DNA of 64,000 bases from Candidatus Colwellbacteria bacterium (GTDB lineage Bacteria; Patescibacteriota; Minisyncoccia; UBA6257; Colwellbacteraceae). The DNA is taken from contig JAQTUL010000007.1 of assembly GCA_028710275.1 (NCBI GenBank), forward strand, positions 952 to 64,951, written 5' to 3'. The notes below the pieces were generated by a model. That model searched no databases, was not told where the DNA came from, and worked only from the letters and a program-made list of their open reading frames with translations. The translations under genes were made by a program, and so were the position numbers. Positions within the stretch are counted from its first letter, which is position 1. The number at the start of each line of letters is the position of its first letter. This document shows, in pieces, positions 15,315 to 31,802 of the stretch.

Positions 15315-16760
15315 ATGAAGCAGAAGACCTTAATCATAGCCTTTATTATCTTGGGGTCTTTTTGCATGAATGCTTCCACGGTTTTCGCGTGGACTAATCC
15401 TTCGGTAAGCCCGGCAGCTGGAGGAGGGATGTACGTTGCCGAACAAAACTCTCCAGCAAATACGGTCTATATAAAATCCAACGGCAATGTGGGCGTTGGG
15501 ATGACTAATCCGACTGCCAAAATGAACATTGGATTAGACACGTCTTTTACGAGCGGTACGGCGTCGATGATAAACTGGACCGCTGCCACTACCGGAGCTT
15601 CATCAAATACGATCGGGCTAAATATCGATTTTAACAACTTTACCCCTAACGCTACCAGTTCCAACACCTACGGTGTTTTTCTAGATGATCCAGTCAATGC
15701 CAATGGTTCGGTCTACGGCCTTTATGTCTCTGGATCGAACTGGGACTATGGAATATATTCCGCGGACAATGTCTATTTCACCACGACTAGTTATATGGGG
15801 GATACCTCAACCTATTTTGATACATCCGGAAGATTATTCTTGCCCGCTTCCGATTATATACAATTCGATACTGCCGCTACTCAGATATATGCTTCTGCTG
15901 ATGCTATAGAGAATCTTACGGTGACGGCTGCCGGTCACATAATCCTCAACCCTGTAAGCAATGTCGGTATCGGCAATATCTCTCCTACTGCGTATCTCAA
16001 TATAAAAGCCGGGACCGCCGCGGCCGGTACGGCTCCTTTGAAATTCACAACCGGAGTGAACCTAACAGCTCCGGAGGCCGGAGCGGTGGAATGGGACGGA
16101 ACTAATCTTTTTATAACCCAGGATACCGGACCAACCAGAAAGACGATTGCCTATACCGATTCTGCGTCCACCGGAACCATCACGGCCGCGAACGTCTCAT
16201 CCGGAGCCTTCGGGGCAAACACTGGGGGAGGGAACTATAGTTTTCCCGCGAATGTTGCTATAGGAACCTCTGGGACGCCCGCTGCTGCGTTGGATGTACG
16301 GGGGCTAATGGTTGGAGGATTTGGCGCTCAGACGACAGCGGGCACTCTTGATTGGAATGATGTATCTAATTCACGATCAGGAAGCGGATATTCACTTCTT
16401 CTTGGTAGTGCGACAAATGGTCCAGGTTCTGGAAATTATTTCCATCCTTTCAGTTTCGAATATAGTAATAAGGATGGCACCGGCAATGTAACCCAATTTG
16501 CTATTCCTTATGGAAACTCCTCAAGTATCAATACGGGAATGTTTATGAGAGGTAGATATGGTGGGGCGTGGACCTCTTGGGTAAAAGTAATCACCTCAGA
16601 CACGAGTGGTAATGTGACGTTTACTGGAAATACAAACCTATGTCATCTAGTTTCCTATTCTGGAGGAACAACGTCGTGCCCAGCCGGATATTACACGTGG
16701 ACAGGCACCGCTCTCGCTTCAGGAACGATGTTATGTTGTAAGGTAGATAATCCACTGTAA
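15315..16760 (+). CDS. secreted Ser/Thr/Gly/Ala-rich protein, probable cell-surface protein
   Basis: clear signal peptide (MKQKTLIIAFIILGSFCMNASTVFA); low-complexity T/S/G/A/N composition; Cys pairs at the C-terminus. Confidence 0.55.
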   Translation: MKQKTLIIAFIILGSFCMNASTVFAWTNPSVSPAAGGGMYVAEQNSPANTVYIKSNGNVGVGMTNPTAKMNIGLDTSFTSGTASMINWTAATTGASSNTIGLNIDFNNFTPNATSSNTYGVFLDDPVNANGSVYGLYVSGSNWDYGIYSADNVYFTTTSYMGDTSTYFDTSGRLFLPASDYIQFDTAATQIYASADAIENLTVTAAGHIILNPVSNVGIGNISPTAYLNIKAGTAAAGTAPLKFTTGVNLTAPEAGAVEWDGTNLFITQDTGPTRKTIAYTDSASTGTITAANVSSGAFGANTGGGNYSFPANVAIGTSGTPAAALDVRGLMVGGFGAQTTAGTLDWNDVSNSRSGSGYSLLLGSATNGPGSGNYFHPFSFEYSNKDGTGNVTQFAIPYGNSSSINTGMFMRGRYGGAWTSWVKVITSDTSGNVTFTGNTNLCHLVSYSGGTTSCPAGYYTWTGTALASGTMLCCKVDNPL

Positions 16761-16772
16761 AAATATCTTAAG

Positions 16773-16797
16773 ACCCGCCTGATGGCGGGTTTTTTTG
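16773..16797 (+). terminator. rho-independent terminator (ACCCGCC-tgatg-GCGGGT followed by T7)
   Basis: hairpin followed by TTTTTTT after the surface-protein gene; the ATG at 16782 lies inside it. Confidence 0.7.
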
Positions 16798-16853
16798 ATA
16801 TGGGTATCTTAGTGTTTGTATCATTTCCGTCTTTTGGTTTATCATCTTCATAT

Positions 16854-17333
16854 ATGTCGAACGCAGTAAACGGACCTTCTTACGAAACACTCGAGGTTAG
16901 CGCTAAACTATATCCATTGGAGGCCATATATGGCGCGGTCTATGTCTTTCTGGACAAGGCTTATTTTTTCCTTGATGGGGACCCGGAAGATAAGGTGACC
17001 ATAAATATAAAAGGGAAGGAGGGGATTTCCCAAAATGATCTCAAACAACTCAAAAACGAGCTTCAGAATGAGCTTATAAACTATGCGTTTAGGGTTAAAA
17101 TATCCGAATCCAACAGAAAGATAAGAGAATACATAGTCGGAGCCGCCCTTCTGGGGGTTACGGGCGAGTTTGATATTCATCCGGCAAGTATAAGACCGGA
17201 GGAAAAAAATGATGACCGCGGACATCTGGCCGAGGAAGAAGTTGTCATAGACGATGTCTGGGCCGATGATCCTTTGGGAATAGCCGTTCCCTGGGAGGAT
17301 AAATATATGACCGAAAATAAAGAAGGGGAATAG
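16854..17333 (+). CDS. hypothetical protein, candidate HxsD-like His-Xaa-Ser system accessory protein (start uncertain, 16782 to 16854)
   Basis: first ORF of the Hxs-type cluster; contains ELINYAFRV, which resembles the LLNDYxLRE motif I recall for HxsD (from memory, unverified). Confidence 0.4.
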   Translation: MSNAVNGPSYETLEVSAKLYPLEAIYGAVYVFLDKAYFFLDGDPEDKVTINIKGKEGISQNDLKQLKNELQNELINYAFRVKISESNRKIREYIVGAALLGVTGEFDIHPASIRPEEKNDDRGHLAEEEVVIDDVWADDPLGIAVPWEDKYMTENKEGE

Positions 17334-17543
17334 ATGGATATCCTATTCAGCAAGAAGCTCTATAAAGAAGAGGCGATAGACGCGGCGGCGGCCGCCTTCA
17401 GCGACGTGGCTGACATATTCATAACGGTTGGGCGCGATATCATAGGCGTTGGCATAAAAGGCTGCGCCGCGGAGGATAAGCCGCTTATACAGAGCGAGTT
17501 TTCCAATTACGTGCTTTCAGAAATGAGGAGGCCCATTATTTAG
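17334..17543 (+). CDS. small protein (69 aa), second HxsD-like candidate
   Basis: start abuts the previous stop (TAGATG); C-terminal EFSNYVLSEMRR again resembles an LLNDYxLRE-type motif. Confidence 0.35.
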   Translation: MDILFSKKLYKEEAIDAAAAAFSDVADIFITVGRDIIGVGIKGCAAEDKPLIQSEFSNYVLSEMRRPII

Positions 17544-17549
17544 ACTATT

Positions 17550-19040
17550 ATGGAAAAAAACAAGTGCAAAGGCTGCATGAACTGCGGCAATATAGAGCTT
17601 GATCCCGATAAGCCGAATTTTTTCAGATTCAGGAAGGTGGGAGACCAGGTTCTTATAACTAATGATTTTGGAGGCAGTCATTTTCTTTCGGAAGCTGATT
17701 TTAAGGATTTTGCTGAAGGAAAGATAACTCCGATACATGAGCAATATGACCCTCTTATGAAAGCGGGTTTTCTGAAGAGTGATATAGACGTTGATATGGC
17801 CCTTAATCTGTATAGGTCGAGAAACGCGTCAATATTCTACGGGCCATCCCTCCATATAATAGTCGTCACACTGAGGTGTAACTATAAGTGTGTCTATTGT
17901 CAGGCGAGTTCAAGGCCGATGGATGGAATCGGATATGATATGGATATAGAAACTGCGAGAAAGACAGTTGATTTTATATTTTCTACGCCTAATCCCTCAA
18001 TAACGATAGAGTTCCAGGGCGGTGAGCCACTTATTAACTGGGAGGCTATCAAGTTTATAACCGAATACGCAAGACAAAAGGAGGCTGAGACGGGAAAGAA
18101 GGTTTTTCTTTCGCTCGTTTCTAATCTCAGTCTTCTCGATGAGGAAAAGCTTGATTTCATAATTGATCACGGGGTGGGTCTCTGTACTTCCATTGACGGT
18201 CCAGAGGAGCTTCATAATCTCAATCGTCCGATGCCTGGAGGGAACAGCTATCGGGAGACTATGGATCGAGTAGATAGGATAAAAAAGCTAGAAGCTGACA
18301 GGGAGGCGGAAAAAAAGCCGATGTATAAGCTTTCAGCCCTACTTACCGTATCAAAAAGGTCTCTTTCGCAACCTAAGGAGATAATCGACGAATATCTGAA
18401 ACATGGTTTTACGGGGATACATCTCCGGCCTTTAAGCTATCTAGGGGACGCGACAAAAACGGGAGATTCTATCGGATATAGCGCCTTAGAATTCATGGAT
18501 TTCTGGAAAAGGTCCCTCGATTACATATTGGAATTAAATATGGCTGGTGCGGAGTTCACTGAGCGCGGATCGGCGATTGTTTTGCAGAAGATATTAAAGG
18601 CGATGGACCCGGGGTATGTTGACCTCAAATCTCCGTGCGGAGCCGTGATAGGCCAGATGCTCTATAACTACGATGGCAAAATATACACTTGCGATGAAGG
18701 AAGAATGTGTGAAGGAGATGTATTCGCGTTAGGAAGGGTGGATGATACGGGTGGAGAAGAGACTAAGGAGGCGTATAACGAAAATTATAAGCGTATCGTC
18801 ACCGGCGGGAAGACAAAGGCGATGCTCGTAGCATCGACCCTTGATAACACCCCTTGTGACTATTGTGCCTATAAACCTTATTGTGGGGTCTGTCCTGTTA
18901 TAAACTATTCAACATCCGGTAATCTTTATCCCCAGATGGCGACAAGTGACTGGTGTGTCAGACAGAAAGCCATGTTCGACTACCTATTCGAGAAGATGCA
19001 GCATCCGGAGTATCTGAAAATATTCAAAAAATGGATATAA
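17550..19040 (+). CDS. radical SAM enzyme with C-terminal SPASM-like domain and Cys-rich N-terminal extension (Hxs-system maturase candidate)
   Basis: CNYKCVYC (CxxxCxxC) cluster motif, GGEPL, C-terminal CDYCAYKPYCGVC SPASM-type Cys motif, N-terminal CKGCMNC. Confidence 0.85.
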   Translation: MEKNKCKGCMNCGNIELDPDKPNFFRFRKVGDQVLITNDFGGSHFLSEADFKDFAEGKITPIHEQYDPLMKAGFLKSDIDVDMALNLYRSRNASIFYGPSLHIIVVTLRCNYKCVYCQASSRPMDGIGYDMDIETARKTVDFIFSTPNPSITIEFQGGEPLINWEAIKFITEYARQKEAETGKKVFLSLVSNLSLLDEEKLDFIIDHGVGLCTSIDGPEELHNLNRPMPGGNSYRETMDRVDRIKKLEADREAEKKPMYKLSALLTVSKRSLSQPKEIIDEYLKHGFTGIHLRPLSYLGDATKTGDSIGYSALEFMDFWKRSLDYILELNMAGAEFTERGSAIVLQKILKAMDPGYVDLKSPCGAVIGQMLYNYDGKIYTCDEGRMCEGDVFALGRVDDTGGEETKEAYNENYKRIVTGGKTKAMLVASTLDNTPCDYCAYKPYCGVCPVINYSTSGNLYPQMATSDWCVRQKAMFDYLFEKMQHPEYLKIFKKWI

Positions 19041-19179
19041 GAGGAGAAGAAACGATTGGTTTTATCAGATAAGAAACTTTGATCGATAAGCAGACTGTCG
19101 AAATCCACAGCTAGAAGATATACTTATACTGTATAATCAATTAAGTGTTCCATTTAAGCGAAAAACAAGGAATATTAAA

Positions 19180-20055
19180 GTGGATATAAAAAAGAAGCTT
19201 CCGGCAATAAGAAAGAATATAGAGTCTTTTCTCATAAGTGAGGAAGGGCGCATAAGCAAGAAGAGCGCTCTTGAGCTTGGTATGGGAATAGCCGCGCTTG
19301 GCTTCATGCTTACGCAGTCGATTACATCGGCTCATTATAGTTATTTCGAGAACGTTGCCGGACAAGGGAGACATCAATCGGGAGATGCGGTTCCTCCGCC
19401 ACCGGCGGCAGGAAGCCATACGAGCTATTTTGAAAATACGGCTGGTGGAGGAAGACATTCTTCACATGCTTCACATGCATCCCATGGTTCACACGGTTCT
19501 CATGGGTCTCATTCTTCGCATTCCTCCCATGGTTCACATGGTTCTCATGGTTCGCACAGCTCTCACTCATCTCATGGTTCACACGGTTCTCATGGGTCTC
19601 ATTCTTCGCATTCCTCCCATGGTTCACATGGTTCTCATGGTTCGCACAGCTCTCACTCATCTCATGGTTCACATAGCTCTCATGGTTCTCACTCATCCCA
19701 TGGTTCACATAGCTCTCATGGTTCTCACTCTTCTCACTCTTCACATGGTTCACATGCTTCCCATGGTTCTCATGGTTCACATGCTTCCCATGGTTCTCAT
19801 GGTTCTCACTCTTCTCACTCTTCCCATGGTTCTCATGGTTCGCACAGCTCTCACTCATCTCATGGTTCGCATAGCTCGCACGGTTCGCATGGTTCCCATT
19901 CCTCCCATGGTTCTCATGGCTCCCACTCTTCGCATAGTTCTCATGGCTCCCACTCTTCGCATAGCTCGCATTCTAGCTGTGGTGTCATGATTACAGACAT
20001 GGACTGCTATTCCTGTAATTACGCGGCAGGAGATGTTACAACCGGAGTAGTCTAG
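19180..20055 (+). CDS. hxsA: His-Xaa-Ser repeat protein (HxsA-like putative precursor/substrate)
   Basis: N-terminal hydrophobic segment, two YFEN(V/T)AG.GRH motifs, then about 58 consecutive H-[SGA]-S triplets and a Cys-containing tail (SSCGVMITDMDCYSCNY). Confidence 0.85.
   Translation: MDIKKKLPAIRKNIESFLISEEGRISKKSALELGMGIAALGFMLTQSITSAHYSYFENVAGQGRHQSGDAVPPPPAAGSHTSYFENTAGGGRHSSHASHASHGSHGSHGSHSSHSSHGSHGSHGSHSSHSSHGSHGSHGSHSSHSSHGSHGSHGSHSSHSSHGSHSSHGSHSSHGSHSSHGSHSSHSSHGSHASHGSHGSHASHGSHGSHSSHSSHGSHGSHSSHSSHGSHSSHGSHGSHSSHGSHGSHSSHSSHGSHSSHSSHSSCGVMITDMDCYSCNYAAGDVTTGVV
19456..19977 (+). repeat. coding tandem repeat region of hxsA (9-bp H-x-S units; higher-order 90-bp unit duplicated exactly at 19486..19575 and 19576..19665)
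   Basis: direct reading: the CAT GGT TCN / CAT TCT TCN units are periodic; the 90-nt blocks are identical. Confidence 0.9.
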
Positions 20056-20088
20056 GTAGCATTCTTTCTTTGTGATAGGCTATCGGTA

Positions 20089-21369
20089 ATGCAGTTTACT
20101 GGTCTTGAAATAATGGTGGCAGGAACCTGTCCGCTTAACTGCTCATATTGCTACATACCTAAAACTCCCGGCATGGACAGGATCCACCGGGATGTTCTGG
20201 TTTCACTCGAGGATGAATCGGTTTTTAAAAGGGCTTTTAATCTTGCTGGAGGGGGCATAGAGAACATCGGCTTCTGGGGTACGGAACCGGCAATAGTTAT
20301 GGATGTTCTCACTGATAAGATACCGACAATGAAGAGAATTTTTCCCTTGCTTAGGCATATATCCTTTTCGACTTCCGGTATTGCAGCTGATCCTATAATT
20401 CCTTTCGTGAAGGCGGCTTCCCGATCCGGCATAAACGTAAACATACAGGTGTCCCTAGACGGGCCAGATTTTATTTCGGATGTAAATCGTTTTTCAGGAG
20501 CGGCCGATATAGTTCCCAATAATGTAAAGAAGATTGTTTCAGCCCTTAAGGATATTCAAGCGAAGCTTGTCATAAATTGGAAGCCGACGCTGACACTTCA
20601 GAACATGAAGGAAATGGATGACAGCAAGATAAGGGAATATTTTGATTTTTTTAAAAGAGTAAACACAGAAATAATATCGGCGAACAAAAATCCTAACATA
20701 CGCATAGCCGAACATTCGGCTGCTCCGACTCCGATGCTTCCCGGAAAATATACTGCTCTCGATGGGGTGGCGTTTGCTGAATTCATAAGAAGAGTACACG
20801 CGACCGGGAATAGGACCGCTCATACGATAAAGATGATTGATTTTTTCCGAAGGACGGCGGAATTTAAGAATGATAAAAAAAGGATGATGTGTGGGGCTGG
20901 CAACTCTTTTATGGCCGTTGGAGGCAGGGGGTTTATATGTCATAGGAGCTTTTTCTTCGACGACGACGATTATGTTGATGCGGCGATAGCGGGAACGGAC
21001 GAATGGTTGGTGGCGAAGCTTAACAGAAAAACGGTCGAGATGCTTCGTAAATGGTATATGCCGGACCCTGATGACAAGGGAGATATAGAGAGATATCTCC
21101 ATGTGATGGAAGGTTTTCATAGGTTCAATAAGTTGGCTGTTTCAAATATAGAGGCAGCGACTTTGGAATTGGCTATGGTCGGCCAGGTAGACCGTGAATT
21201 TCTAGATGATCCCGTATATCTAAGACTCTTTGCGTTGTTTATGAGTACCGCCTCTAATTGTCCTTTCGAAAACATTCTCAATACCTCCTCTGCTAACGTT
21301 ATGCCTTTCTCAATGATAAGGTTCCACGGAAACGGGGCGTTCCGGGAGGTGATAAAAACCATAAGATGA
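20089..21369 (+). CDS. radical SAM enzyme (Hxs-system maturase candidate, HxsB/HxsC-like)
   Basis: N-terminal CPLNCSYCY cluster motif, GFWGTEP (GGE-like), C-terminal Cys/Gly-rich region (MMCGAGNSFMAVGGRGFICH). Confidence 0.8.
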   Translation: MQFTGLEIMVAGTCPLNCSYCYIPKTPGMDRIHRDVLVSLEDESVFKRAFNLAGGGIENIGFWGTEPAIVMDVLTDKIPTMKRIFPLLRHISFSTSGIAADPIIPFVKAASRSGINVNIQVSLDGPDFISDVNRFSGAADIVPNNVKKIVSALKDIQAKLVINWKPTLTLQNMKEMDDSKIREYFDFFKRVNTEIISANKNPNIRIAEHSAAPTPMLPGKYTALDGVAFAEFIRRVHATGNRTAHTIKMIDFFRRTAEFKNDKKRMMCGAGNSFMAVGGRGFICHRSFFFDDDDYVDAAIAGTDEWLVAKLNRKTVEMLRKWYMPDPDDKGDIERYLHVMEGFHRFNKLAVSNIEAATLELAMVGQVDREFLDDPVYLRLFALFMSTASNCPFENILNTSSANVMPFSMIRFHGNGAFREVIKTIR

Positions 21370-22706
21370 CGGAAGAATTTAAAAAAGAGAATGATGCGGT
21401 CGCTGAATCCTTTATAAAGAGATATTTTATCGATCCCTGGAAAAGCGATGACAGGAAGGTGTGGGAGCACTCACGGAACTTTGAAGTCTTTTTTGGGACA
21501 AAGTGTCCTTTTGGCTGCAAATACTGTTACCTGAACAGAAAAGGGGATGATTTGTATCCGACCGATATCCAGAGAGACGATGTTCTTATAGCTAATATGG
21601 CTAAGGTGCTCGAGTGGATGAAGCGAGAGAATATGGCACCAAAAGGATTTTTATTCTTTTCCGGAGAACCCTTCGTCCAAGAGGCATGCATGAAGGCAAT
21701 AGATATGACGCTCGATGCCTTTGCTGAAAGTGAAAAAAAGCCGGAGCAGATAACGGTTCCGACCGGTTTTGGATTCATGTTCTACCCAGAAATGGTCGAG
21801 CGCGTCGAGAAACTGATGGAAAAATCCAGGCGTGTTGGGATACCAATACATCTAAGCGCCTCGATAGACGGTAAGCATTGCGAGCCAAACCGACCCTTCA
21901 AGGATCAGACGATTAAGCGGGATGATGAATTTTACGACAAGGCCTTCAGCTTTATGGCTAAGTGGAAGATCGGAGCCCATCCGATGATCTATTCGGACCT
22001 TATTGAGAATTGGAAGGATAATTGGAAATGGTTCCAAGAAAAATTCTTAAAACACGGGATACCTTTCTATAAGATATATCTTTTAGAGGTAAGAAACGCC
22101 GAATGGTCACCGGATCAGATTGGCCGATTCTCGGAGTTCATTGATTTTCTCATTGAATGGACATATGAAAAGGTTTTCAATAAGAACGCTGATCATACTT
22201 TGGATTTCATATTCAACCACGGCTTCAATCTTTTAAGAAACTCATTTCTAGAGGGTGATGGAAGAGGGATGAAATGCGCCCTCCAAGATTATATGTTCCT
22301 AAGGCTGGGAGACCTTGCCTGGGTACCTTGTCATCGAACCTCTTATGACCAATTCATCTTTGGGCGTTTCATCGAGAAAAACGGGAAAATAGACGGTTTT
22401 AGCTCCGATAATTCCGATCTTATTCCGGCCATCTATTCCATGAAGGGGGAGGATATGCCTTATTGCGAGAACTGTGCCATAAGAGACCTGTGTGTCCAAG
22501 GGTGTCTCGGAAGCCAATATGAGGCGACGGGAGACCTTTTTTCGCCTATACCGACCGTCTGTGAGTTGGAACACGTAAAAGTATTTACGATAATAAAAAC
22601 TCTCAAGAGGCTGGGTCTTATTGATAAGGCGACGGCATATATCCCTGAAAATAGAAGAAAAGCGTTTAAGAGGGTCTCTGATATGGTTCTGAATACGGTA
22701 AACTGA
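21366..22706 (+). CDS. radical SAM/SPASM enzyme (Hxs-system maturase candidate), translationally coupled to the preceding rSAM
   Basis: CPFGCKYCY cluster motif, FFSGEPF, canonical SPASM CX2CX5CX3C (CENCAIRDLCVQGC); 4-nt start/stop overlap. Confidence 0.8.
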   Translation: MTEEFKKENDAVAESFIKRYFIDPWKSDDRKVWEHSRNFEVFFGTKCPFGCKYCYLNRKGDDLYPTDIQRDDVLIANMAKVLEWMKRENMAPKGFLFFSGEPFVQEACMKAIDMTLDAFAESEKKPEQITVPTGFGFMFYPEMVERVEKLMEKSRRVGIPIHLSASIDGKHCEPNRPFKDQTIKRDDEFYDKAFSFMAKWKIGAHPMIYSDLIENWKDNWKWFQEKFLKHGIPFYKIYLLEVRNAEWSPDQIGRFSEFIDFLIEWTYEKVFNKNADHTLDFIFNHGFNLLRNSFLEGDGRGMKCALQDYMFLRLGDLAWVPCHRTSYDQFIFGRFIEKNGKIDGFSSDNSDLIPAIYSMKGEDMPYCENCAIRDLCVQGCLGSQYEATGDLFSPIPTVCELEHVKVFTIIKTLKRLGLIDKATAYIPENRRKAFKRVSDMVLNTVN

Positions 22707-22722
22707 TAGAATTGCCTTTGAT

Positions 22723-23253
22723 ATGGAGACAAAACCGGATATCCGAAAGATAAGGGTGGGCCTACAAAAAGTTAGGGACATATATGCCCTTAGGCGGGGT
22801 TTTACTGATATCCTCGAAGAAAAGATAAGCTCGGAACTCGATAAGGCACTCGGTACTGTTTCCGGACAGCTCGAAGCTTCATTCATTGACGAAGAAGTGA
22901 AGTCCGAGCCAATCGATGCTCCATGGCTAATAAAATTGACCAAGGCGATTGCCGACGCCTCTATTTATAGACAAATTGATGATCAGTTTGCTGATTTTGT
23001 ATCCGAATACTCCATGGTTGTGTCCGCCTGGAACGACCGAGTGGTTCGATCAAGTGAATTAACGAGAGAGCTTGCGGTTGCGGAATCCCTTGCAGTTAGT
23101 CGCCCGGCGATGATCCAAGCAGCAAAGGCACTAAGGGCTCTTTCTGAGAAGCTTATACAGCTTAACTTTATCGAAACCCCAGCTCTTAATATGAGTAAGT
23201 TCTATCTTGATTCGCTTCGGAAAAACTTGGAGAAGAAAGAAGAAAAAGAATAA
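22723..23253 (+). CDS. hypothetical alpha-helical protein between the Hxs-type module and the rSAM paralog array
   Basis: 176-aa ORF on the same strand, tightly packed; no recognisable family. Confidence 0.45.
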   Translation: METKPDIRKIRVGLQKVRDIYALRRGFTDILEEKISSELDKALGTVSGQLEASFIDEEVKSEPIDAPWLIKLTKAIADASIYRQIDDQFADFVSEYSMVVSAWNDRVVRSSELTRELAVAESLAVSRPAMIQAAKALRALSEKLIQLNFIETPALNMSKFYLDSLRKNLEKKEEKE

Positions 23254-23255: not shown

Positions 23256-24176
23256 ATGGAGAGAGTTGATATCAAGGTTGGATTCCAATGCAACAATCAT
23301 TGCATCTTCTGTATACAAGGCAACAAGAGGGAATACTGTAAGGACCGGACAGAAGATGAGATAAAGAAAATATTGGAACAGGGTCGGTCCGAAGGAAAGG
23401 AGGCGGTCGTTTTCACGGGCGGCGAGCCAACTTTTCGTCCGAAGCTTCTTCTTAATTGCGTCTCGTATGCAAGGGATATTGGTTATAGGGTCATACAGAT
23501 ACAATCTAATGGGAGGATGTTCGCATATCGGGCATATTGCGAGGAGATAGTCCGGGCGGGAGCTAATGAATTCTCTCCTGCGGTACATGGGTCGGTCGCC
23601 TCTATACATGACCGTCTCACAAACGCGCCCGGAAGTTTTGATCAGGTTACTGCTGGTATTCGAAATCTGAGAGAACTGAGACAATATATTCTTACCAATT
23701 CGGTGGTAACGAAAATAAATATGGAAGATATACCAAATCTAGCGAAGCTGTTGGTCGAGCTTAGGGTAGACCAGTTCCAGTTCGCTTTTATACATATAAA
23801 TCCGATTATTGCAGAAGACCAGAAGCTCATTGAAGAAGTGGTTCCCTCGATGGCCAAGGCCATGCCTTATGTGAAGGCTGGTCTCGATATAGGCCGGAAG
23901 TCGGGAGTTAAGTGCATGACTGAAGCAATTCCCTATTGCATGATGAGAGAGTACGAAGACCTTATCGCCGAGAGGATAATACCAGAAGCTCATGTCTTCG
24001 ATGCTGAGGAGGATATAGAGAAATACAGCGAGTACAGACAGAACGAAGGAAAATCAAAGGGGCCAAGGTGCGTTTCGGAGTGCATTAAGAACGACGTATG
24101 CGAGGGCCCATGGAGGGAATATCCGCAGCTTTTCGGCTGGGAAGAGTTTAAGCCGATAACCGAAGAAAAGATATGA
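23256..24176 (+). CDS. radical SAM enzyme, array paralog 1 (twitch/SPASM-like, MoaA/PqqE-type core)
   Basis: CNNHCIFC cluster motif, FTGGEPT, QSNGR, GSFDQ..GI.NL, C-terminal CVSECIKNDVCEGPW. Confidence 0.8.
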   Translation: MERVDIKVGFQCNNHCIFCIQGNKREYCKDRTEDEIKKILEQGRSEGKEAVVFTGGEPTFRPKLLLNCVSYARDIGYRVIQIQSNGRMFAYRAYCEEIVRAGANEFSPAVHGSVASIHDRLTNAPGSFDQVTAGIRNLRELRQYILTNSVVTKINMEDIPNLAKLLVELRVDQFQFAFIHINPIIAEDQKLIEEVVPSMAKAMPYVKAGLDIGRKSGVKCMTEAIPYCMMREYEDLIAERIIPEAHVFDAEEDIEKYSEYRQNEGKSKGPRCVSECIKNDVCEGPWREYPQLFGWEEFKPITEEKI

Positions 24177-25102
24177 AAAAGCAAGGAGTAATACTGCTAA
24201 GGTGGGCTAATAAATGTAATAACAACTGCGCGATGTGCAGTCTTCATTCAGGAGATAGTGAAGAGGAGGTTATGTCCATCGAAGAAGCGCTCGATTTCAC
24301 GAGAAAAAACGCGGCATCATATCAAAATATCGAGTTCACTGGAGGCGAGCCGACGATAAAGGAGGGTCTCGTCGATCTTGTCGCGGCAGCCAGAGAATCG
24401 GGATATGAGAGAATAGCTATAAGTACTAACGGCAGAAGGCTTTCTGATGAAAATTTTTGCCGTAAACTAATTGATAACGGTCTGAATGCTGTGACCTTCG
24501 CCCTCCATGGGCATGATGTGGAAACTCATGAAAAGAGGATGAGTAGATCGGATGGAGCTTTTAATGAGGCGATACGAGGTCTCAAAAACCTGATTACAGA
24601 ACATTCAGTGTCATTAAACGTCGCATCTGTTCTTGCAAGACATAACCACGAAACCTTCTCGGAGATTGGCAAGATGCTTATAGAGATGGGCGTTAAGCAA
24701 TGGAGTATATCGGACTTAATCCCGGACGGGAGGGCGCAGGATATATATGATTCACTAAGCCTCAGTCCTTCGGAGGCGGAAAAGGCAATAAGCGGCATTC
24801 TGCCTATGGCTGGTCAGATTGGGCTTGTTATATTTAATTTTTCAAGATGTTTTTTCCCGAGGGACCTTGATGACAGGATACTTTTCTTCGATACCAGAGA
24901 TAAAGCTGATCTTTGTAATATAGAGAGAAAGGAAGGCCGCTATGAGAAGGAGGGCGAAGTCTATCACGATTTTCATAAGACATATCTCGGGATATGCGAA
25001 AAATGTCCGGCATATGAGACATGCGGAGGAGTATGGAGAAGAAATATGGAGCTGTACGGAGAGGGGATAATGACCGAAGTAGCTAGAAGAAACGGTTTTT
25101 GA
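24173..25102 (+). CDS. radical SAM enzyme, array paralog 2
   Basis: CNNNCAMC, FTGGEPT, STNGRR, C-terminal CEKCPAYETCGGVW; ATGA overlap with paralog 1. Confidence 0.8.
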   Translation: MKKQGVILLRWANKCNNNCAMCSLHSGDSEEEVMSIEEALDFTRKNAASYQNIEFTGGEPTIKEGLVDLVAAARESGYERIAISTNGRRLSDENFCRKLIDNGLNAVTFALHGHDVETHEKRMSRSDGAFNEAIRGLKNLITEHSVSLNVASVLARHNHETFSEIGKMLIEMGVKQWSISDLIPDGRAQDIYDSLSLSPSEAEKAISGILPMAGQIGLVIFNFSRCFFPRDLDDRILFFDTRDKADLCNIERKEGRYEKEGEVYHDFHKTYLGICEKCPAYETCGGVWRRNMELYGEGIMTEVARRNGF

Positions 25103-25133
25103 TGCCGAGCTCTCCAAAAATAAAAAAAGACAT

Positions 25134-26075
25134 ATGAAAAAACCAGGAATGATATTCGTCAGATGGGCCAACAGATGCAATAACAATTGTGAGATGTGCA
25201 GTCTTCATTCTGACGACAGCAGAGATGAATCGATGTCGTTCGAAGAGGCGGCGGAGTTTACGATAAAAAACATCGATGAATATTCTAATATCGAGTTTAC
25301 GGGAGGCGAACCGACGATAAAGGAGGGCCTTTTAGAGCTTGTCGCTCTGGCGAAGAAGACGGGATACGATAAGATATGTATCAGTACTAACGGCAGAAGG
25401 CTTTCCGATGAAAATTTTTGCCACGCTCTCGCGGAGAACGGCTTGAACGTTGTGACATTTGCTCTTCATGGGCATAATGCTGAGACCCATGAGAGAATGA
25501 GCCGCGTTATCGGTTCTTTTGAAGAGTCGATGGAGGGAATAAAGAATGTTCTTAATGAACCAACGATGGCGCTTGCGATAACATCCGTCTTATCAAGACA
25601 TAACCACGAAACCTTCTCGGAGATTGGCAAGATGCTTATAGAGATGGGCGTTAAGCAATGGAGTATATCGGACTTAATCCCGGACGGGAGGGCGCAGGAT
25701 ATATATGATTCACTAAGCCTCAGTCCTTCGGAAATGGGGAAATCCCTAGCTGAGGCGATCCCTCTTTTTCCCGGTTTCTATCAGGTTGGGATATTTAATT
25801 TTTCAAGATGCTTTTTCCCAGAAGAACTCTATAGGAACGTTGCATTCTTTGATACGAAAGCAAAAGCTGATCTGTGGGATATAGAAGGTAAGGAGGGCCG
25901 CTATGAGAAGGAGGGCGAAGTTTATCACGATTTTCATAAGACATATCTCGGAATATGCGAAAAATGTCCGGCATATGAGACATGCGGAGGAGTATGGAAG
26001 AGAAGTCTGGAACTATATGGGCCTTCAGAAATGGAAAAAATAGCGAGGGTAAACGGTTTTGTGGAGACGGTGTAA
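25134..26075 (+). CDS. radical SAM enzyme, array paralog 3 (recent duplicate of paralog 2)
   Basis: CNNNCEMC, FTGGEPT, STNGRR; C-terminal half nearly identical to paralog 2, including 100%-identical nucleotide patches. Confidence 0.8.
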   Translation: MKKPGMIFVRWANRCNNNCEMCSLHSDDSRDESMSFEEAAEFTIKNIDEYSNIEFTGGEPTIKEGLLELVALAKKTGYDKICISTNGRRLSDENFCHALAENGLNVVTFALHGHNAETHERMSRVIGSFEESMEGIKNVLNEPTMALAITSVLSRHNHETFSEIGKMLIEMGVKQWSISDLIPDGRAQDIYDSLSLSPSEMGKSLAEAIPLFPGFYQVGIFNFSRCFFPEELYRNVAFFDTKAKADLWDIEGKEGRYEKEGEVYHDFHKTYLGICEKCPAYETCGGVWKRSLELYGPSEMEKIARVNGFVETV

Positions 26076-26096
26076 TATAGGATATAAATAAGACCA

Positions 26097-27074
26097 ATGG
26101 AAAAGACAGTATTCATACAATTGAACTCAACGTGCAATCAGCACTGTCTTTTTTGTAATAGGCCGCCGCAATCGGAAAGGAGCCCGGAATATCTAACCTT
26201 CGAACAAGTAATAAAAAAGATAGATGAGTGCGCTGATGATCCGGAGATAATAAGAGTGTGTCTCACCGGAGGGGAGCCGACCTTATATCCGCGTCTTGTT
26301 GAGGCGGTTACCCGTTGTCACGAGAGAGGCAAGCATGTGGAGATACAGACGAACGGGGTTGCCCTAACAAAGGAAAGAATAAAGGAATTGAAAGACGCAG
26401 GCATAGATATAATAAACTTTGCGTTCCATAGTCATAAGAAGGAAATAAGCAACAGGCTGAGAGGTGTCGATTTCGGTTTTGAGAACATAACCGAATCGAT
26501 AAAGGAGGCTAACCGTCTCGGAATAGTGATTCATATAGTGCATGTCATAACGAAGCTGAACTATAAGGATCTACCGGAGTTTATAGACACTTTTTCAGAT
26601 ATGGGACTTGATCTGCCAAAGATGTTCCTTAATCTTTCAATAGTCGTTCCGGATGGATGGGCCTGGGAGAATAAGGATGTGATCGTCCCAAGGATGTCTG
26701 ATATAAAGCCTTATCTAATCGAAGCCTGCCATAAATGCAAAGAATATGGGATAACCTTCGATATTTCGGAGGTGGTTCCGCTGTGCATAGTGGATGGGTA
26801 TGAGGATATGGCGATATCGACGGTCTTCAAGATAAACAACGCTGTTATAGTCGATGATTACCATACAGGTAAAAAATCCCTCGAGTTTGCCGCTGCTGAC
26901 GAGAGCTGGGCTATGAAGGCTCCCCAATGCGTAAAATGTTCCATGAACGAAATATGTGTCGGATTCTACCCTCATCTTTCTGAGATGTACGGCTTCGAAG
27001 ATTATGTTCCGAGAACGGATGATCCGGCCGAGATAATAAGCCGATTTAAGGGACCAGAAGATGACAGGCAATAA
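26097..27074 (+). CDS. radical SAM enzyme, array paralog 4
   Basis: CNQHCLFC, LTGGEPT, QTNG, C-terminal CVKCSMNEICVGFY. Confidence 0.8.
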   Translation: MEKTVFIQLNSTCNQHCLFCNRPPQSERSPEYLTFEQVIKKIDECADDPEIIRVCLTGGEPTLYPRLVEAVTRCHERGKHVEIQTNGVALTKERIKELKDAGIDIINFAFHSHKKEISNRLRGVDFGFENITESIKEANRLGIVIHIVHVITKLNYKDLPEFIDTFSDMGLDLPKMFLNLSIVVPDGWAWENKDVIVPRMSDIKPYLIEACHKCKEYGITFDISEVVPLCIVDGYEDMAISTVFKINNAVIVDDYHTGKKSLEFAAADESWAMKAPQCVKCSMNEICVGFYPHLSEMYGFEDYVPRTDDPAEIISRFKGPEDDRQ

Positions 27075-28035: not shown

Positions 28036-28051
28036 GGTTGCTGAATCTTAA

Positions 28052-31754: not shown

Positions 31755-31773
31755 TTACCTATGGTGATAAGAG

Positions 31774-31802
31774 CCGACTCGATTAACTCGAGTCGGTTTT
31801 TT
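31774..31802 (+). terminator. rho-independent terminator inside the rSAM array (CCGACTCGA-ttaac-TCGAGTCGG followed by T6)
   Basis: perfect 9-bp stem followed by TTTTTT; followed by a TATAAT-like box at 31825..31832. Confidence 0.7.

What the first reader, a model, noticed from the sequence alone, without database searches (positions are those of the whole stretch)
16782..22706. Expanded His-Xaa-Ser (Hxs-type) system: HxsA-like repeat protein with three radical SAM enzymes and two HxsD-like small ORFs
Seen in sequence: one ORF (19180..20055) encodes about 58 uninterrupted H-[S/G/A]-S triplets, preceded by two YFEN(V/T)AG(Q/G)GRH motifs and followed by a Cys-bearing tail. Three radical SAM genes flank it (17550, 20089, 21366; two with SPASM-type CxxCx5Cx(2-3)C motifs), and two small ORFs upstream carry NY..-type motifs that resemble the HxsD signature I recall (LLNDYxLRE). 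Established knowledge: the described Hxs cassette has four genes (HxsA precursor, rSAM HxsB and HxsC, HxsD), and its chemistry is still uncharacterised. Here the cassette is enlarged (three rSAMs, duplicated HxsD-like gene, rearranged order) and sits in front of a second large rSAM array. This suggests the poly-His/Ser protein is heavily modified.
Basis: partly seen in the sequence, partly recalled or inferred. Interest (0 to 1): 0.8.

Follow-up and report, generated by a model that had tools for sequence, protein, structure and literature searches.

The report
CPR HxsA4-type His-Xaa-Ser maturation locus
A tiny-genome candidate-phyla-radiation bacterium spends about 18 kb and twelve radical SAM enzymes on one exported protein made of 58 His-x-Ser repeats; this is a little-studied "type 4" relative of the HXS antiphage system that has also picked up an enzyme pair otherwise found mostly in viruses.

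Summary
ORF 19180-20055 encodes 58 uninterrupted H-[G/S/A]-S triplets, two YFENxAGxGRH motifs and a Cys-bearing tail. NCBIfam places four genes above their curated cut-offs: HxsD, HxsD_rel, HxsB and HxsA4.

The interpretation needs three corrections.
- The HxsD + HxsD_rel pair, the D-Drel-B-A order and the downstream rSAM array are the normal architecture of HxsA4 ("type 4") loci. I saw this in about 55 loci, mostly Omnitrophota and metagenomes.
- The HxsC-like genes are the downstream array: nine paralogs at 23256-33985, all below the HxsC and HxsC4 cut-offs. An A24 leader peptidase follows at 33997-35148. The system therefore spans about 16.8-35.1 kb.
- The two rSAMs at 20089 and 21366 are not Hxs enzymes. 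They form an unnamed, always-adjacent pair. In viruses, CPR and DPANN it normally follows small "MAFTW" proteins rich in [H/Y]-x-[S/T]. Only this window, L014 and partial contig L081 place the pair in an HxsA4-type locus.

Runs of 41-53 HxS triplets recur in relatives, so 58 is the longest seen, not an outlier.

Canonical HXS was shown in 2026 to be an antiphage system. The function here is inferred only.

Verdict: new variant of a known kind, moderately interesting.

The parts
15315..16760 (+). Secreted 481-aa protein with a signal peptide and a C-terminal 4-Cys motif (N.C.LV.Y...CP.G.Y...GTMLCCKVDNPL). It is a probable accessory gene or second substrate.
   Evidence: No Pfam, NCBIfam or PHROG family. 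Proteins with the same C-terminal motif lie directly upstream of HxsD in L014, L031 (338 bits), L032, L036, L040 and weakly L026. The Parcubacteria copies without Hxs genes (L001, L004, L005) lack the motif.
16770..16824 (+). Terminator-like hairpin (16770-16793, 10-bp stem plus T-run) followed by a promoter-like site (16795-16824). This is the likely start of the Hxs transcription unit.
   Evidence: consensus scan only, not evidence of function.
16782..17333 (+). HxsD. The real start is probably ATG 16854.
   Evidence: TIGR03976 scores 62 bits against a cut-off of 50, matching residues 40-125. The LYPLEAIYG and LINYAFRVK motifs correspond to the LYW and LLNDYxLRE motifs described in PMC13128918. 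The ORF start overlaps the terminator-like hairpin.
17334..17543 (+). HxsD-like small protein (HxsD_rel), 69 aa.
   Evidence: NF038315 scores 60.6 bits against a cut-off of 41. The same 67-69-aa gene sits between HxsD and HxsB in L014, L025-L028 and most metagenome loci.
17550..19040 (+). HxsB, a radical SAM/SPASM maturase.
   Evidence: TIGR03978 scores 475.9 bits against a cut-off of 370. CNYKCVYC at residue 110 and CDYCAYKPYCGVC at residue 436.
19180..20055 (+). HxsA4-type repeat protein (291 aa). Leader n-region res 1-29 (nt 19180-19266); hydrophobic segment res 30-51 (19267-19332); YFEN motifs at 19342-19374 and 19426-19458; 58 HxS triplets at 19456-19977; Cys/Tyr/Asp tail at 19978-20052.
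   Evidence: NF038313 scores 101.4 bits against a cut-off of 55. Repeat counts. Hydropathy and charge. Leader conserved in 666 proteins. It is the only HxS-rich ORF in the window.
20089..21369 (+). X1, a radical SAM enzyme of an unnamed family (NCBI locus tag PHG66_03065).
   Evidence: No family above cut-off. About 130 homologs at 29-41% identity. Always next to X2. The AF2 model has pLDDT 91; the nearest folds are anSME, CteB and ChlB at TM 0.4-0.5.
21366..22706 (+). X2, a radical SAM/SPASM-like enzyme and the obligate partner of X1.
   Evidence: CPFGCKYC at residue 47 and CENCAIRDLCVQGC at residue 367. No family above cut-off. No PDB sequence relative. Adjacent to X1 in every locus with room.
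22723..23253 (+). Y, a 176-aa protein of unknown function that follows X1-X2 in CPR loci, one Iainarchaeum locus and three viral loci.
   Evidence: phmmer hits in L001, L004, L005, L007-L010, L012, L014, L083, L086 and L091. Only one database homolog besides itself (63% identity). No family hit.
23256..29266 (+). HxsC-like radical SAM paralogs C1-C6: 23256-24176, 24173-25102, 25134-26075, 26097-27074, 27061-28035, 28052-29266.
   Evidence: HxsC4 or HxsC is the best hit for five of the six; for C4 PqqE and MoaA score marginally higher. Scores are 71-148 bits, below the cut-offs of 500 and 268. All have CxxxCxxC plus a C-terminal 3-Cys motif. Pairwise identity is 22-34%, except C2/C3 at 70%. C1 has orthologs in L014 (347 bits), L025 (341 bits) and L081.
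29293..30267 (+). Conserved unknown protein of 324 aa (motif GYPSCCIDF).
   Evidence: Only a weak DUF483 hit, below cut-off. Homologs lie inside HxsA4 loci L030, L031, L042, L046 and L048.
30260..31114 (+). HxsC-like radical SAM paralog C7.
   Evidence: Best hit HxsC4 at 110.5 bits against a cut-off of 500. Motifs.
31215..31801 (+). 179-aa membrane-anchored protein (31215-31754) with its own promoter-like site upstream and a strong terminator-like hairpin (31769-31801). Membership in the system is doubtful.
   Evidence: No family hit. No homolog in other HxsA4 loci. Terminator-like hairpin with a 14-bp stem.
31839..33985 (+). HxsC-like paralogs C8 (31839-32816) and C9 (32915-33985). C9 is the closest in the window to canonical HxsC.
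   Evidence: C8 scores 151.7 bits on HxsC4. C9 scores 175.6 bits on HxsC (TIGR03977) against a cut-off of 267.9. Orthologs directly after HxsA4 in L026 score 325 and 225 bits.
33997..35148 (+). Polytopic membrane aspartyl peptidase of family A24 (prepilin-peptidase type). Candidate leader peptidase for HxsA4.
   Evidence: PF01478 scores 36.4 bits against a cut-off of 26.5. Both Asp motifs are present (TDLKYGRIPN, WSAGDAKLF). Homologs in HxsA4 loci L014, L026, L035/L045, L036/L037, L048, L063, L071, L073, L078 and L080.

Best explanation
The locus (about 16.8-35.1 kb of the window, from a MAG of Candidatus Colwellbacteria, CPR/Parcubacteria) is a 'type 4' (HxsA4) member of the His-Xaa-Ser family of rSAM-matured proteins.

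It encodes one substrate, HxsA4. Its parts are:
- a conserved 29-residue basic leader (KKLPAIRKN..FL.SEEGRISKK);
- a hydrophobic export or anchor segment ending S-x-A|H;
- two YFENxAGxGRH motifs;
- 58 HxS triplets;
- a Cys/Tyr/Asp tail.

Proposed mechanism, with each step marked as shown or inferred:
1. Inferred by homology with E. coli HXS: in the cytoplasm HxsB and the HxsC-like enzymes, the latter assisted by HxsD and HxsD_rel, install radical-mediated covalent modifications in or next to the HxS triplets. Nine diverged HxsC-like paralogs would allow several chemically or positionally distinct modifications on an iterative substrate.
2. Inferred from gene linkage only: the X1-X2(-Y) pair, recruited from a module that elsewhere accompanies [H/Y]-x-[S/T]-rich 'MAFTW' proteins, adds a further modification. 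The extra C-terminal tail is its most likely target.
3. Inferred from conserved co-occurrence: the A24 aspartyl peptidase removes the leader at the membrane.
4. Inferred from the sequence: the mature domain of about 240 residues has 61 His and almost no Lys, Arg, Asp or Glu. It is displayed outside the membrane as a pH-switchable polycation, with computed charge about +1 at pH 7 and +42 at pH 5.5.
5. Speculative, by analogy with canonical HXS: this layer guards the envelope, for example against entry of phage DNA.

What is actually shown here: the family assignments, the architecture and how often it recurs, and the independence of the X1-X2 module.
For: - Family assignments above curated cut-offs for HxsD, HxsD_rel, HxsB and HxsA4.
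- Eight of the nine array paralogs have HxsC4 or HxsC as best hit; in C4 HxsC ranks third behind PqqE and MoaA. All nine have intact cluster motifs.
- The same architecture occurs in NCBI-named HxsA4 loci of Omnitrophota (L025, L026), in L027/L028, in Saccharibacteria L014 and in 52 metagenome loci: HxsD - HxsD_rel - HxsB - HxsA4 - several rSAMs, often with an A24 peptidase and the 324-aa unknown.
- C1, C8, C9 and the A24 peptidase have clear orthologs there, at 127-347 bits.
- The leader is conserved in 666 proteins.
- Hydrophobic segment and charge profile.
- HxS runs of 41-53 triplets occur in independent metagenomes. The repeat is degenerate at DNA level and uses six Ser codons.
- X1-X2 are linked to HxsA4 in the window and L014. 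In partial contig L081 they sit next to a C1 ortholog.
- The two complete X1-X2-linked HxsA4 proteins have the longest non-domain tails. L014's tail carries the MAFTW-type C-x-[SA]-D-K motif twice.
- The X1 model resembles the peptide-modifying rSAM enzymes anSME, CteB and ChlB.
Against: - No experiment exists for any HxsA4-type system.
- No array member reaches the HxsC or HxsC4 cut-off.
- HxsA4 lacks the peptidoglycan-binding domain of canonical HxsA, and CPR cells have no classical periplasm.
- No PADLOC model hits, though that library predates HXS.
- The flanks are housekeeping genes, not a defence island.
- The mature repeat carries almost no Lys or Arg, unlike the basic repeats invoked for DNA binding in E. 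coli. DNA binding would need acidic pH or the modification.
- The putative A24 cleavage site does not look like a classical G|F prepilin site.
- X1-X2 are absent from all 52 metagenome HxsA4 loci and from L025-L028, so they are not needed for HxsA4 maturation in general.
- The window tail lacks the C-x-[SA]-D-K motif.
Confidence: 0.55

Rival explanations
1. Multi-core RiPP or cofactor precursor. The 58 HxS triplets are repeated cores. Each is cross-linked by the rSAM enzymes and then cut out, so one precursor yields many copies of a small His/Ser-derived molecule, such as a metallophore, redox cofactor or antibiotic.
For: - A leader-like conserved N-terminus is followed by highly repetitive cores.
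- There are many tailoring rSAMs, and in Omnitrophota loci also B12-rSAMs and a methyltransferase, as in heavily tailored RiPP clusters.
- The nearest NCBIfam neighbours of HxsB, X1 and X2 are RiPP maturases such as PapB, CcpM and SCIFF.
Against: - No protease is present that could release tripeptides; the only peptidase is an A24 leader-type enzyme.
- There is no transporter of the ABC/PCAT type in the locus.
- Some family members fuse the repeat to a C-terminal domain of about 330 aa, which fits a protein product rather than a peptide.
- In canonical HXS the modified protein itself is the effector.
Confidence: 0.15
2. Metal-handling protein. The poly-His/Ser domain is an extracytoplasmic Ni, Zn, Cu or Fe buffer or scavenger, and the rSAM modifications tune metal affinity. 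There is no role in phage defence.
For: - The mature part has 61 His in 240 residues.
- A cupredoxin-like gene and NifS lie upstream.
- Cys-containing tails are present.
Against: - The cupredoxin, NifS and OFOR genes belong to the syntenic backbone. Relatives without any Hxs genes also have them (L001, L004).
- Simple His-rich metal binders need no rSAM machinery.
- There is no metal transporter or regulator in the locus.
Confidence: 0.15
3. X1-X2-Y is a passenger. It is a remnant of a virus-derived or ancestral Parcubacterial 'MAFTW' module that lost its substrates. It sits between hxsA4 and the HxsC-like array by accident and does not act on HxsA4.
For: - In related Parcubacteria the same chromosomal slot (between the cupredoxin gene and OFOR) holds MAFTW genes plus X1-X2-Y without Hxs genes (L001, L004, L005).
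- Window X1 is closer to those copies (379-387 bits) than to the HxsA4-linked X1 of L014 (253 bits).
- The 56 other HxsA4 loci examined (L025-L080) do without X1-X2.
- No MAFTW gene is present in the window.
Against: - The same order HxsA4-X1-X2-Y recurs in a different CPR class (L014).
- X1-X2-Y followed by a C1 ortholog recurs in L081.
- All three genes are intact, with the family-invariant residues.
- Gene spacing is tight: 33 nt after hxsA4, a 4-nt overlap between X1 and X2, and 2 nt between Y and C1.
- The X1-X2-linked HxsA4 proteins have unusual C-terminal extensions, and the L014 one carries a MAFTW-type motif.
Confidence: 0.3
4. One reading: a single enlarged canonical Hxs cassette in which the three flanking rSAMs are HxsB, HxsC and one extra Hxs enzyme, standing next to an unrelated rSAM array.
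For: HxsB, HxsD and an HxS-repeat protein are present and adjacent.
Against: - X1 and X2 score only 22.5 and 20.7 bits on HxsB and do not appear on HxsC at all.
- HxsC similarity resides in the downstream array.
- The array is conserved with HxsA4 across phyla.
Confidence: 0.03

Closest known systems
Canonical HXS antiphage system (HxsD-HxsB-HxsC-HxsA; E. coli, Klebsiella, Pseudomonas; Li et al., Nat Commun 2026, PMC13128918; families first defined by Haft and Basu)
   Same: - An HxS-repeat protein with an N-terminal export signal.
- An HxsB-family SPASM rSAM (above cut-off), an HxsD-family small protein (above cut-off) and HxsC-related rSAMs.
- The substrate is presumably modified in the cytoplasm, cleaved at the N-terminus and exported.
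   Different: - 58 repeats against 5.
- No peptidoglycan-binding domain.
- Repeats lack Lys and Arg.
- No protein reaches the HxsC cut-off; instead there are nine diverged HxsC-like paralogs.
- Extra components: HxsD_rel, an A24 peptidase, a 324-aa unknown and the X1-X2-Y module.
- Order D-Drel-B-A-..., not D-B-C-A.
- The host is a CPR bacterium, whereas 99.7% of canonical systems are in Pseudomonadota.
NCBIfam 'type 4' Hxs families: HxsA4 (NF038313), HxsD_rel (NF038315) and HxsC4 (NF038332). Annotated mainly in Candidatus Omnitrophota; no publication found.
   Same: - HxsA4 and HxsD_rel are above cut-off.
- Same leader and the same order D-Drel-B-(x)-A4-rSAM array.
- Shared C1, C8, C9 and A24 orthologs.
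   Different: - No HxsC4-grade protein: the maximum is 152 bits against a cut-off of 500. This is also true of the Omnitrophota loci checked.
- No gene between HxsB and HxsA4.
- Longest HxS run seen: 58, against a median of 5 and a maximum of 53 elsewhere.
- X1-X2-Y is inserted after HxsA4.
- No B12-rSAM or methyltransferase genes.
X1-X2 rSAM pair with 'MAFTW' [H/Y]-x-[S/T]-rich proteins, in IMG/VR viral contigs, CPR and DPANN. Unnamed; defined here.
   Same: Window X1, X2 and Y are members at 30-41% identity, with invariant residues kept, the same order and overlapping genes.
   Different: In the window and in L014 the preceding gene is HxsA4, not a MAFTW protein. No MAFTW gene is found in the window.
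SPASM/twitch peptide-modifying rSAM enzymes with solved structures (anSME 4K37, CteB 5WHY, ChlB 9GM3)
   Same: They are the best structural matches of the X1 model (E about 1e-7). The best NCBIfam neighbours of HxsB, X1 and X2 are PapB-, CcpM- and SCIFF-type maturases.
   Different: TM-score is only 0.4-0.5 and identity 14-18%. X1 has three conserved extra Cys (C268, C284, C391) and an HICHR motif rather than a full seven-Cys SPASM motif, plus a long helical C-terminal half.
Type IV prepilin / preflagellin leader peptidases (Pfam PF01478, family A24)
   Same: The protein at 33997-35148 passes the Pfam cut-off and has both catalytic Asp motifs. HxsA4 has a basic leader followed by a hydrophobic segment, the general layout of class III signal peptides.
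   Different: There is no G|F(M)xxxE site. The invariant Gly (EEG|K/R) lies about 7 residues before the hydrophobic segment. The segment also ends with a signal-peptidase-I-like S-x-A|H. Which enzyme cuts, and where, is untested.

Membership tests
Canonical Hxs cassette (TIGR03976-03979 set) | Protein with tandem His-Xaa-Ser repeats (HxsA) | tested here: met
   58 uninterrupted triplets at residues 93-266.
Canonical Hxs cassette (TIGR03976-03979 set) | HxsB: TIGR03978 at or above 370 bits | tested here: met
   475.9 bits over the full length.
Canonical Hxs cassette (TIGR03976-03979 set) | HxsC: TIGR03977 at or above 267.9 bits | tested here: not met
   The best score is 175.6 bits (32915-33985); the others score 67-109 bits. 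X1 and X2 do not hit the model at all.
Canonical Hxs cassette (TIGR03976-03979 set) | HxsD: TIGR03976 at or above 50 bits | tested here: met
   62 bits.
Canonical Hxs cassette (TIGR03976-03979 set) | Four-gene order HxsD-HxsB-HxsC-HxsA (99.6% of systems, PMC13128918) | tested here: not met
   The order here is D-Drel-B-A-X1-X2-Y-C1..C9-A24.
Canonical Hxs cassette (TIGR03976-03979 set) | HxsA carries a peptidoglycan-binding domain and a signal peptide | tested here: inconclusive
   No peptidoglycan-binding domain in Pfam. A signal-like hydrophobic segment is present at residues 30-51.
Canonical Hxs cassette (TIGR03976-03979 set) | Confers phage resistance by blocking DNA entry; +8 Da modification in an HxS repeat | not testable with these tools
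   Requires expression, mass spectrometry and phage assays.
HxsA4-type ('type 4') Hxs locus | HxsA4: NF038313 at or above 55 bits | tested here: met
   101.4 bits.
HxsA4-type ('type 4') Hxs locus | Conserved leader K.LP.I[KR]KN..FL.SEEG[KR]ISKK followed by a hydrophobic segment | tested here: met
   Alignment A2. 666 homologs. 52 loci were found with these patterns.
HxsA4-type ('type 4') Hxs locus | HxsD_rel: NF038315 at or above 41 bits, between HxsD and HxsB | tested here: met
   60.6 bits. Same position in L014, L025 and L027.
HxsA4-type ('type 4') Hxs locus | HxsC4: NF038332 at or above 500 bits | tested here: not met
   The maximum is 151.7 bits. The cut-off is also not met in the NCBI-named HxsA4 loci L025 and L026, so the model is narrower than the locus type.
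HxsA4-type ('type 4') Hxs locus | Array of several HxsC-like or SPASM rSAM genes downstream of HxsA4 | tested here: met
   Nine paralogs here. There are 4-10 in other loci with enough sequence.
X1-X2 rSAM pair (unnamed) | Two adjacent, usually overlapping rSAM genes homologous to X1 and X2 | tested here: met
   X1 ends at 21369 and X2 starts at 21366. Adjacent in all loci with room.
X1-X2 rSAM pair (unnamed) | Directly preceded by one or two M[AGS][FI][TSDE]W proteins with [H/Y]-x-[S/T]-rich repeats | tested here: not met
   No such ORF in the window. HxsA4 occupies that position.

The most novel reading that the evidence does not exclude
A virus-type rSAM pair (X1-X2) normally matures [H/Y]-x-[S/T]-rich proteins encoded beside tail-fibre genes. 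In CPR bacteria it has been captured by an HxsA4 system, so one giant poly-HxS surface protein receives two independent sets of radical modifications. This hyper-modified, pH-switchable polycation is an envelope-level barrier to phage or epibiont-host DNA traffic in organisms that lack most known defence systems. If so, there is a shared His/Tyr-x-Ser/Thr radical chemistry used on both sides of the virus-host conflict.
Probability: 0.15. Interest if true: 0.85.

Novelty: new variant of a known kind. Interest (0 to 1): 0.6.

Why it matters
HXS was shown only in 2026 to be a defence system. Its chemistry, a +8 Da change on S-H-R-S-S, is still unsolved because the E. coli substrate is hard to handle.

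HxsA4-type loci offer a different entry point. Their substrates are short, leader-tagged and highly repetitive, and they come with large sets of diverged HxsC-like enzymes. The window shows the extreme case: 58 repeats, twelve rSAM genes and about 18 kb in a CPR genome. It also suggests a candidate for the unknown leader protease, the A24 peptidase.

The locus further links HxS chemistry to a second, undescribed rSAM pair that is common in uncultivated viruses. If the two enzyme sets act on related [H/Y]-x-[S/T] motifs, they would define a new class of protein modification.

None of this is demonstrated. The value of the locus is as a well-defined target set for co-expression and mass spectrometry.

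Tried and rejected
- **Collagen or tail-fibre reading of HxsA4.** The Pfam Collagen, SclB and PHROG tail-fibre hits come from the triplet periodicity. Gly occupies the x position in only 29 of 58 triplets. Rejected as low-complexity matches.
- **PADLOC.** The scan of ten locus proteins gave only weak viperin-type rSAM similarity. The library dates from 2023 and predates HXS, so this is uninformative.
- **Exact-sequence look-up of HxsB.** It found nothing. The source was identified instead through X1 (P0001, Ca. Colwellbacteria).
- **First impression that 58 repeats is twice the family maximum.** The top 120 of 666 hits had a maximum of 29. The metagenome scan then found runs of 41-53, so this was withdrawn.
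- **Search for a MAFTW-type substrate, TatC, or a second HxS-rich ORF in the window.** None found.
- **Homolog search for Y.** It returned only itself and one relative, so no useful alignment or structure could be made.
- **Sequence search of X1, X2 and C1 against PDB.** Only remote rSAM hits.
- **Rfam gathering scan of 14000-36000.** No RNA family.
- **PHROG scan of the 481-aa and 179-aa proteins.** Nothing.
- **Promoter scan.** Promoter-like sites are fewer than in shuffles (33 against 42±6). Only the two long terminator-like hairpins are used, and only as hints.
- **Assembly-artefact explanation of the repeat.** Not supported for the existence of a long run: the DNA repeat is degenerate, and similar runs occur in other samples. 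It cannot be excluded for the exact copy number.

Full report
**1. The observation**

ORF 19180-20055 (+) starts at a GTG with AAGGAA 7 nt upstream. It encodes 291 residues. Residues 93-266 are 58 uninterrupted H-x-S triplets, with x = Gly 29, Ser 25, Ala 4. The whole protein has 61 His and 94 Ser.

So is the Cys-bearing tail, CGVMITDMDCYSCNYAAGDVTTGVV.

The ORFs at 17550, 20089 and 21366 each carry a CxxxCxxC radical SAM motif. The first and third also carry CxxCx5Cx2-3C.

The long ORFs in the other frames of the repeat (19298-19990 +, 19322-19858 -) are by-products of the repeat.

At DNA level the repeat is degenerate, with 69-84% matches at periods 9, 45 and 90. Ser is encoded by six different codons. 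This points to an old repeat maintained at the protein level, not recent slippage.

One caveat applies. An independent Logan assembly of the same sequencing run (SRR22315508) yields a contig that begins at window position 19839, inside the repeat. The exact copy number therefore depends on the MAG assembly.

**2. Family assignments**

NCBIfam places four proteins above their curated cut-offs:
- 16782-17333 = HxsD (TIGR03976, 62 bits against a cut-off of 50)
- 17334-17543 = HxsD_rel (NF038315, 60.6 against 41)
- 17550-19040 = HxsB (TIGR03978, 476 against 370)
- 19180-20055 = HxsA4 (NF038313, 101 against 55)

It is not passed for HxsC. The rSAMs at 20089-21369 (X1) and 21366-22706 (X2) have no family above cut-off. 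Their best hit is PapB at 45 and 41 bits against a cut-off of 340, and they do not hit HxsC at all.

The HxsC similarity lies in the downstream array, which holds nine paralogs (C1-C9):
- 23256-24176
- 24173-25102
- 25134-26075
- 26097-27074
- 27061-28035
- 28052-29266
- 30260-31114
- 31839-32816
- 32915-33985

For eight of the nine the best hit is HxsC4 (NF038332) or HxsC (TIGR03977). For C4, PqqE and MoaA score marginally higher. Scores are 71-176 bits, all below the cut-offs of 500 and 268.

All nine have CxxxCxxC and a C-terminal 3-Cys motif. They are 22-34% identical to one another, except C2/C3 at 70%, which is a recent tandem duplication.

The array is followed by a polytopic membrane protein at 33997-35148. 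It passes the Pfam cut-off for Peptidase_A24 (36.4 against 26.5) and has both catalytic Asp motifs.

The flanks on both sides are housekeeping genes: ValRS, TsaD, NifS, a glycosyltransferase and a cupredoxin-like protein upstream; OFOR alpha and beta and RecG downstream.

**3. Source**

X1 is 100% identical to NCBI protein PHG66_03065 of a MAG of Candidatus Colwellbacteria (CPR, Parcubacteria), on a 68,444-bp contig. The 176-aa protein after X2 is PHG66_03075.

**4. What the standard HxsA4 locus looks like**

A profile of the HxsA4 leader (alignment A2) finds 666 proteins. In the top 120 the median is 99 aa and 7 HxS. The named members are mostly from Candidatus Omnitrophota, some already annotated 'His-Xaa-Ser repeat protein HxsA4'.

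I examined their genomic contexts in L025 and L026 (Omnitrophota), in L027/L028, and in 52 metagenome loci (L029-L080). All show the same plan:
- HxsD - HxsD_rel - HxsB
- sometimes one more gene
- HxsA4
- then 4 to more than 10 further rSAM genes: HxsC-like and HxsB-like SPASM, and in Omnitrophota also B12-rSAMs and a methyltransferase
- often an A24 peptidase, in L014, L026, L035/45, L036/37, L048, L063, L071, L073, L078 and L080
- often a homolog of the 324-aa unknown at 29293-30267, in L030, L031, L042, L046 and L048

Window C1 has orthologs of 341-347 bits in L025 and L014. C8 and C9 have orthologs of 325 and 225 bits directly after HxsA4 in L026. The A24 peptidase has orthologs of 127-194 bits.

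Even in the NCBI-named loci no array member reaches the HxsC4 cut-off, so that model is narrower than the locus type.

It follows that the doubled HxsD, the gene order and the large array are family traits. They are not an enlargement peculiar to this genome.

Long repeat runs also recur: 53 triplets in L030/L031, 51 in L035/L045, 44 in L033, 43 in L047, 42 in L042 and 41 in L040. L030/L031 also share 59% N-terminal identity with the window protein and the same doubled YF[EQ]N..G.G.H motif. The window's 58 is the longest run I saw, but it lies within the range of this subgroup.

**5. X1-X2(-Y) is a separate module**

X1 has about 130 homologs at 29-41% identity.

In 21 genome loci and 20 IMG/VR viral contigs, X1 is always followed by X2 wherever the contig allows. 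In CPR loci, one Iainarchaeum locus and three viral loci, a homolog of the 176-aa protein Y (22723-23253) comes next.

In nearly all of these loci the pair is directly preceded by one or two small acidic proteins that begin M[AGS][FI][TSDE]W. These have a conserved N-terminal domain of about 35 residues, usually a Cys motif (C-x-[ST]-[HD]-[DNK]), and then S/D/T/N/Y/G/H-rich repeats.

In 37 distinct such proteins, [HY]-x-[ST] occurs 288 times against 159±10 in composition-preserving shuffles (z = 12.7).

In viral contigs the genes just upstream hit tail-fibre, tail-spike and virion-structural PHROGs (L086, L088, L090). L002 carries a Phage_tube_2 gene and a 7-deazaguanine gene set.

Related Parcubacteria (L001, L004, L005) carry MAFTW genes plus X1-X2-Y, with TatC and TatA. 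These sit in the same chromosomal slot as the window's Hxs locus, between the cupredoxin gene and OFOR, and there are no Hxs genes.

Conversely, none of the 52 metagenome HxsA4 loci, nor L025-L028, contains X1-X2.

The combination HxsA4-X1-X2-Y appears only in three places:
- the window;
- L014, a Saccharibacteria MAG that also has HxsD, HxsD_rel, HxsB, an A24 peptidase, a second HxsA4 and a C1 ortholog;
- L081, a 2.5-kb contig with X1-X2-Y (63% identity) followed by the start of a C1 ortholog.

The AF2 model of X1 has pLDDT 91. It is closest to the peptide- or protein-modifying enzymes anSME, CteB and ChlB, at only TM 0.4-0.5. This fits a protein-modifying rSAM of a new subfamily.

**6. Does X1-X2 act on HxsA4?**

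The evidence is indirect:
- The gene order is conserved in two CPR classes.
- Spacing is tight.
- The genes are intact.
- Tail length differs. Among 44 HxsA4 proteins the tail after the last HxS run is normally 1-16 residues (HGQW, GGWC, CSPNIE). The two X1-X2-linked proteins have tails of 25 residues (window) and 52 residues (L014).
- The L014 tail contains C-x-[SA]-D-K twice. This motif is typical of MAFTW type b proteins and absent from the other 43 HxsA4 proteins; its background rate is 0.024 per 1000 residues.

Against this, the window tail does not contain that motif. Window X1 is also closer to the MAFTW-linked Parcubacterial copies than to L014's copy. The passenger hypothesis stays open at about 0.3.

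**7. Proposed mechanism**

Shown: the identities, the architecture and its recurrence.

Inferred by homology with E. coli HXS (PMC13128918): HxsB and the HxsC-like enzymes, the latter with HxsD-type partners, modify the HxS region in the cytoplasm. Processing and export then depend on that modification.

Inferred from sequence:
- Residues 1-29 form a basic leader (8 K/R against 4 D/E).
- Residues 30-51 form a hydrophobic segment ending S-x-A|H.
- The mature part has 61 His, 2 K/R and 6 D/E. Its computed charge is about +1 at pH 7, +10 at pH 6.5 and +42 at pH 5.5.

Inferred from co-occurrence: the A24 peptidase is the leader protease. [quoted passage not shown]

Speculative: an envelope barrier against incoming phage DNA. 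I put this function at roughly one in three. Rival readings are a multi-core RiPP or cofactor precursor, and a metal-handling protein. Both are given in the rival explanations with their tests.

**8. Transcription-unit hints (weak)**

A 10-bp-stem terminator-like hairpin at 16770-16793 overlaps the annotated ATG of HxsD and is followed by a promoter-like site. The HxsD start is therefore probably ATG 16854, which also matches the length of its homologs.

A 14-bp-stem hairpin at 31769-31801 follows the 179-aa membrane protein. It separates C8-C9-A24 from the rest of the array.

The 481-aa secreted protein upstream (15315-16760) is thus a separate unit. Even so, proteins with its C-terminal 4-Cys motif (..CCKV[DS]NP[LI]) lie directly upstream of HxsD in L014, L031, L032, L036, L040 and weakly L026. 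The non-Hxs Parcubacterial copies lack the motif. It is likely an accessory component or a second substrate.

**9. Comparison and novelty**

The locus works like an HXS system and belongs to the HxsA4 branch that NCBIfam already models. I found no paper describing that branch. The full-text search returned only the 2026 E. coli study and its preprint, plus incidental mentions elsewhere.

It fails the canonical membership tests for HxsC, for gene order and for the peptidoglycan-binding domain. It also fails the HxsC4 cut-off.

New here:
- the CPR host;
- the longest HxS run seen;
- the fusion with the virus-associated X1-X2-Y module;
- recognition that the A24 peptidase, the 324-aa protein and the CCKVDNP-tail protein are recurrent components.

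I rate it a new variant of a known kind, with interest 0.6. It is not low, because the system is experimentally untouched, very large for a CPR genome, and connects to an undescribed viral rSAM module.

Noticed in passing
L083-L102 (IMG/VR), L001-L024; window 20089-23253: There is an undescribed module: one or two small acidic 'M[AGS][FI][TSDE]W' proteins with [H/Y]-x-[S/T]-rich repeats (z = 12.7 against shuffles), followed by the rSAM pair X1-X2 (±Y). It is common in uncultivated viruses, where it sits next to tail-fibre or tail-spike genes, and in CPR and DPANN genomes. None of these proteins has a Pfam, NCBIfam or PHROG family above cut-off.
   Followed up: partly
window 15315-16760; L014 5968-6510; L031 6373-7719; L032, L036, L040, L026: Secreted proteins ending in a 4-Cys motif (N.C.LV.[YF]...CP.G.Y...G[YT]M[LM]CCKV.NP[LI]) sit directly upstream of HxsD in HxsA4 loci of different phyla. 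The Parcubacterial homologs in loci without Hxs genes lack this tail. They may be a further substrate or partner.
   Followed up: partly
L033 2863-4587, L041 602-2071, L042 9995-11560, L043 1248-2768, L046 5434-6864, L047 9995-11569: Some HxsA4 proteins continue after the HxS run and a C..CPFI[VA]LWNG motif into a C-terminal domain of about 330 aa, of unknown fold. In these cases the repeat is part of a larger protein and not a short peptide.
   Followed up: no
window 19839 / L082 1: An independent Logan assembly of SRR22315508 breaks inside the HxS repeat. The contig starts at window 19839 and is otherwise identical. The repeat copy number needs read-level or long-read confirmation.
   Followed up: partly
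window 24173-26075: C2 and C3 are 70% identical tandem duplicates with long identical stretches. All other paralog pairs are 22-34% identical. This points to recent duplication or gene conversion within the array.
   Followed up: no
window 16770-16860: A strong terminator-like hairpin overlaps the first ATG of the HxsD ORF (16782). The NCBIfam match starts at residue 40, and ATG 16854 is the more plausible start.
   Followed up: partly
L013, L018, L024 versus L085, L100, L099: Contigs deposited as parts of MAGs of Thermoprotei, Omnitrophota and Paceibacterota have the same lengths as, and overlapping coordinates with, IMG/VR viral contigs (53,993, 56,298 and 26,635 bp). They carry virion and 7-deazaguanine genes, so they are probably viral sequences binned into cellular MAGs.
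   Followed up: no
L001 6337-9824 (and L004, L005): In related Parcubacteria the slot occupied by the Hxs locus holds TatC and TatA, a small protein with a twin-arginine signal (RRKFLK), and three MAFTW/MAFEW proteins upstream of X1-X2-Y. This hints that the modified MAFTW proteins are exported folded through Tat.
   Followed up: no
window 31215-31801: A 179-aa membrane-anchored protein sits inside the rSAM array, with its own promoter-like site and a 14-bp-stem terminator-like hairpin. It has no homolog in other HxsA4 loci and is possibly an unrelated insertion.
   Followed up: no
window 6935-9133 (-): The valine-tRNA ligase is 732 aa and matches only positions 4-695 of the 860-position model, so it lacks the usual C-terminal part. 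The ortholog in L001 is 711 aa, so this looks like a lineage trait of these CPR bacteria.
   Followed up: no
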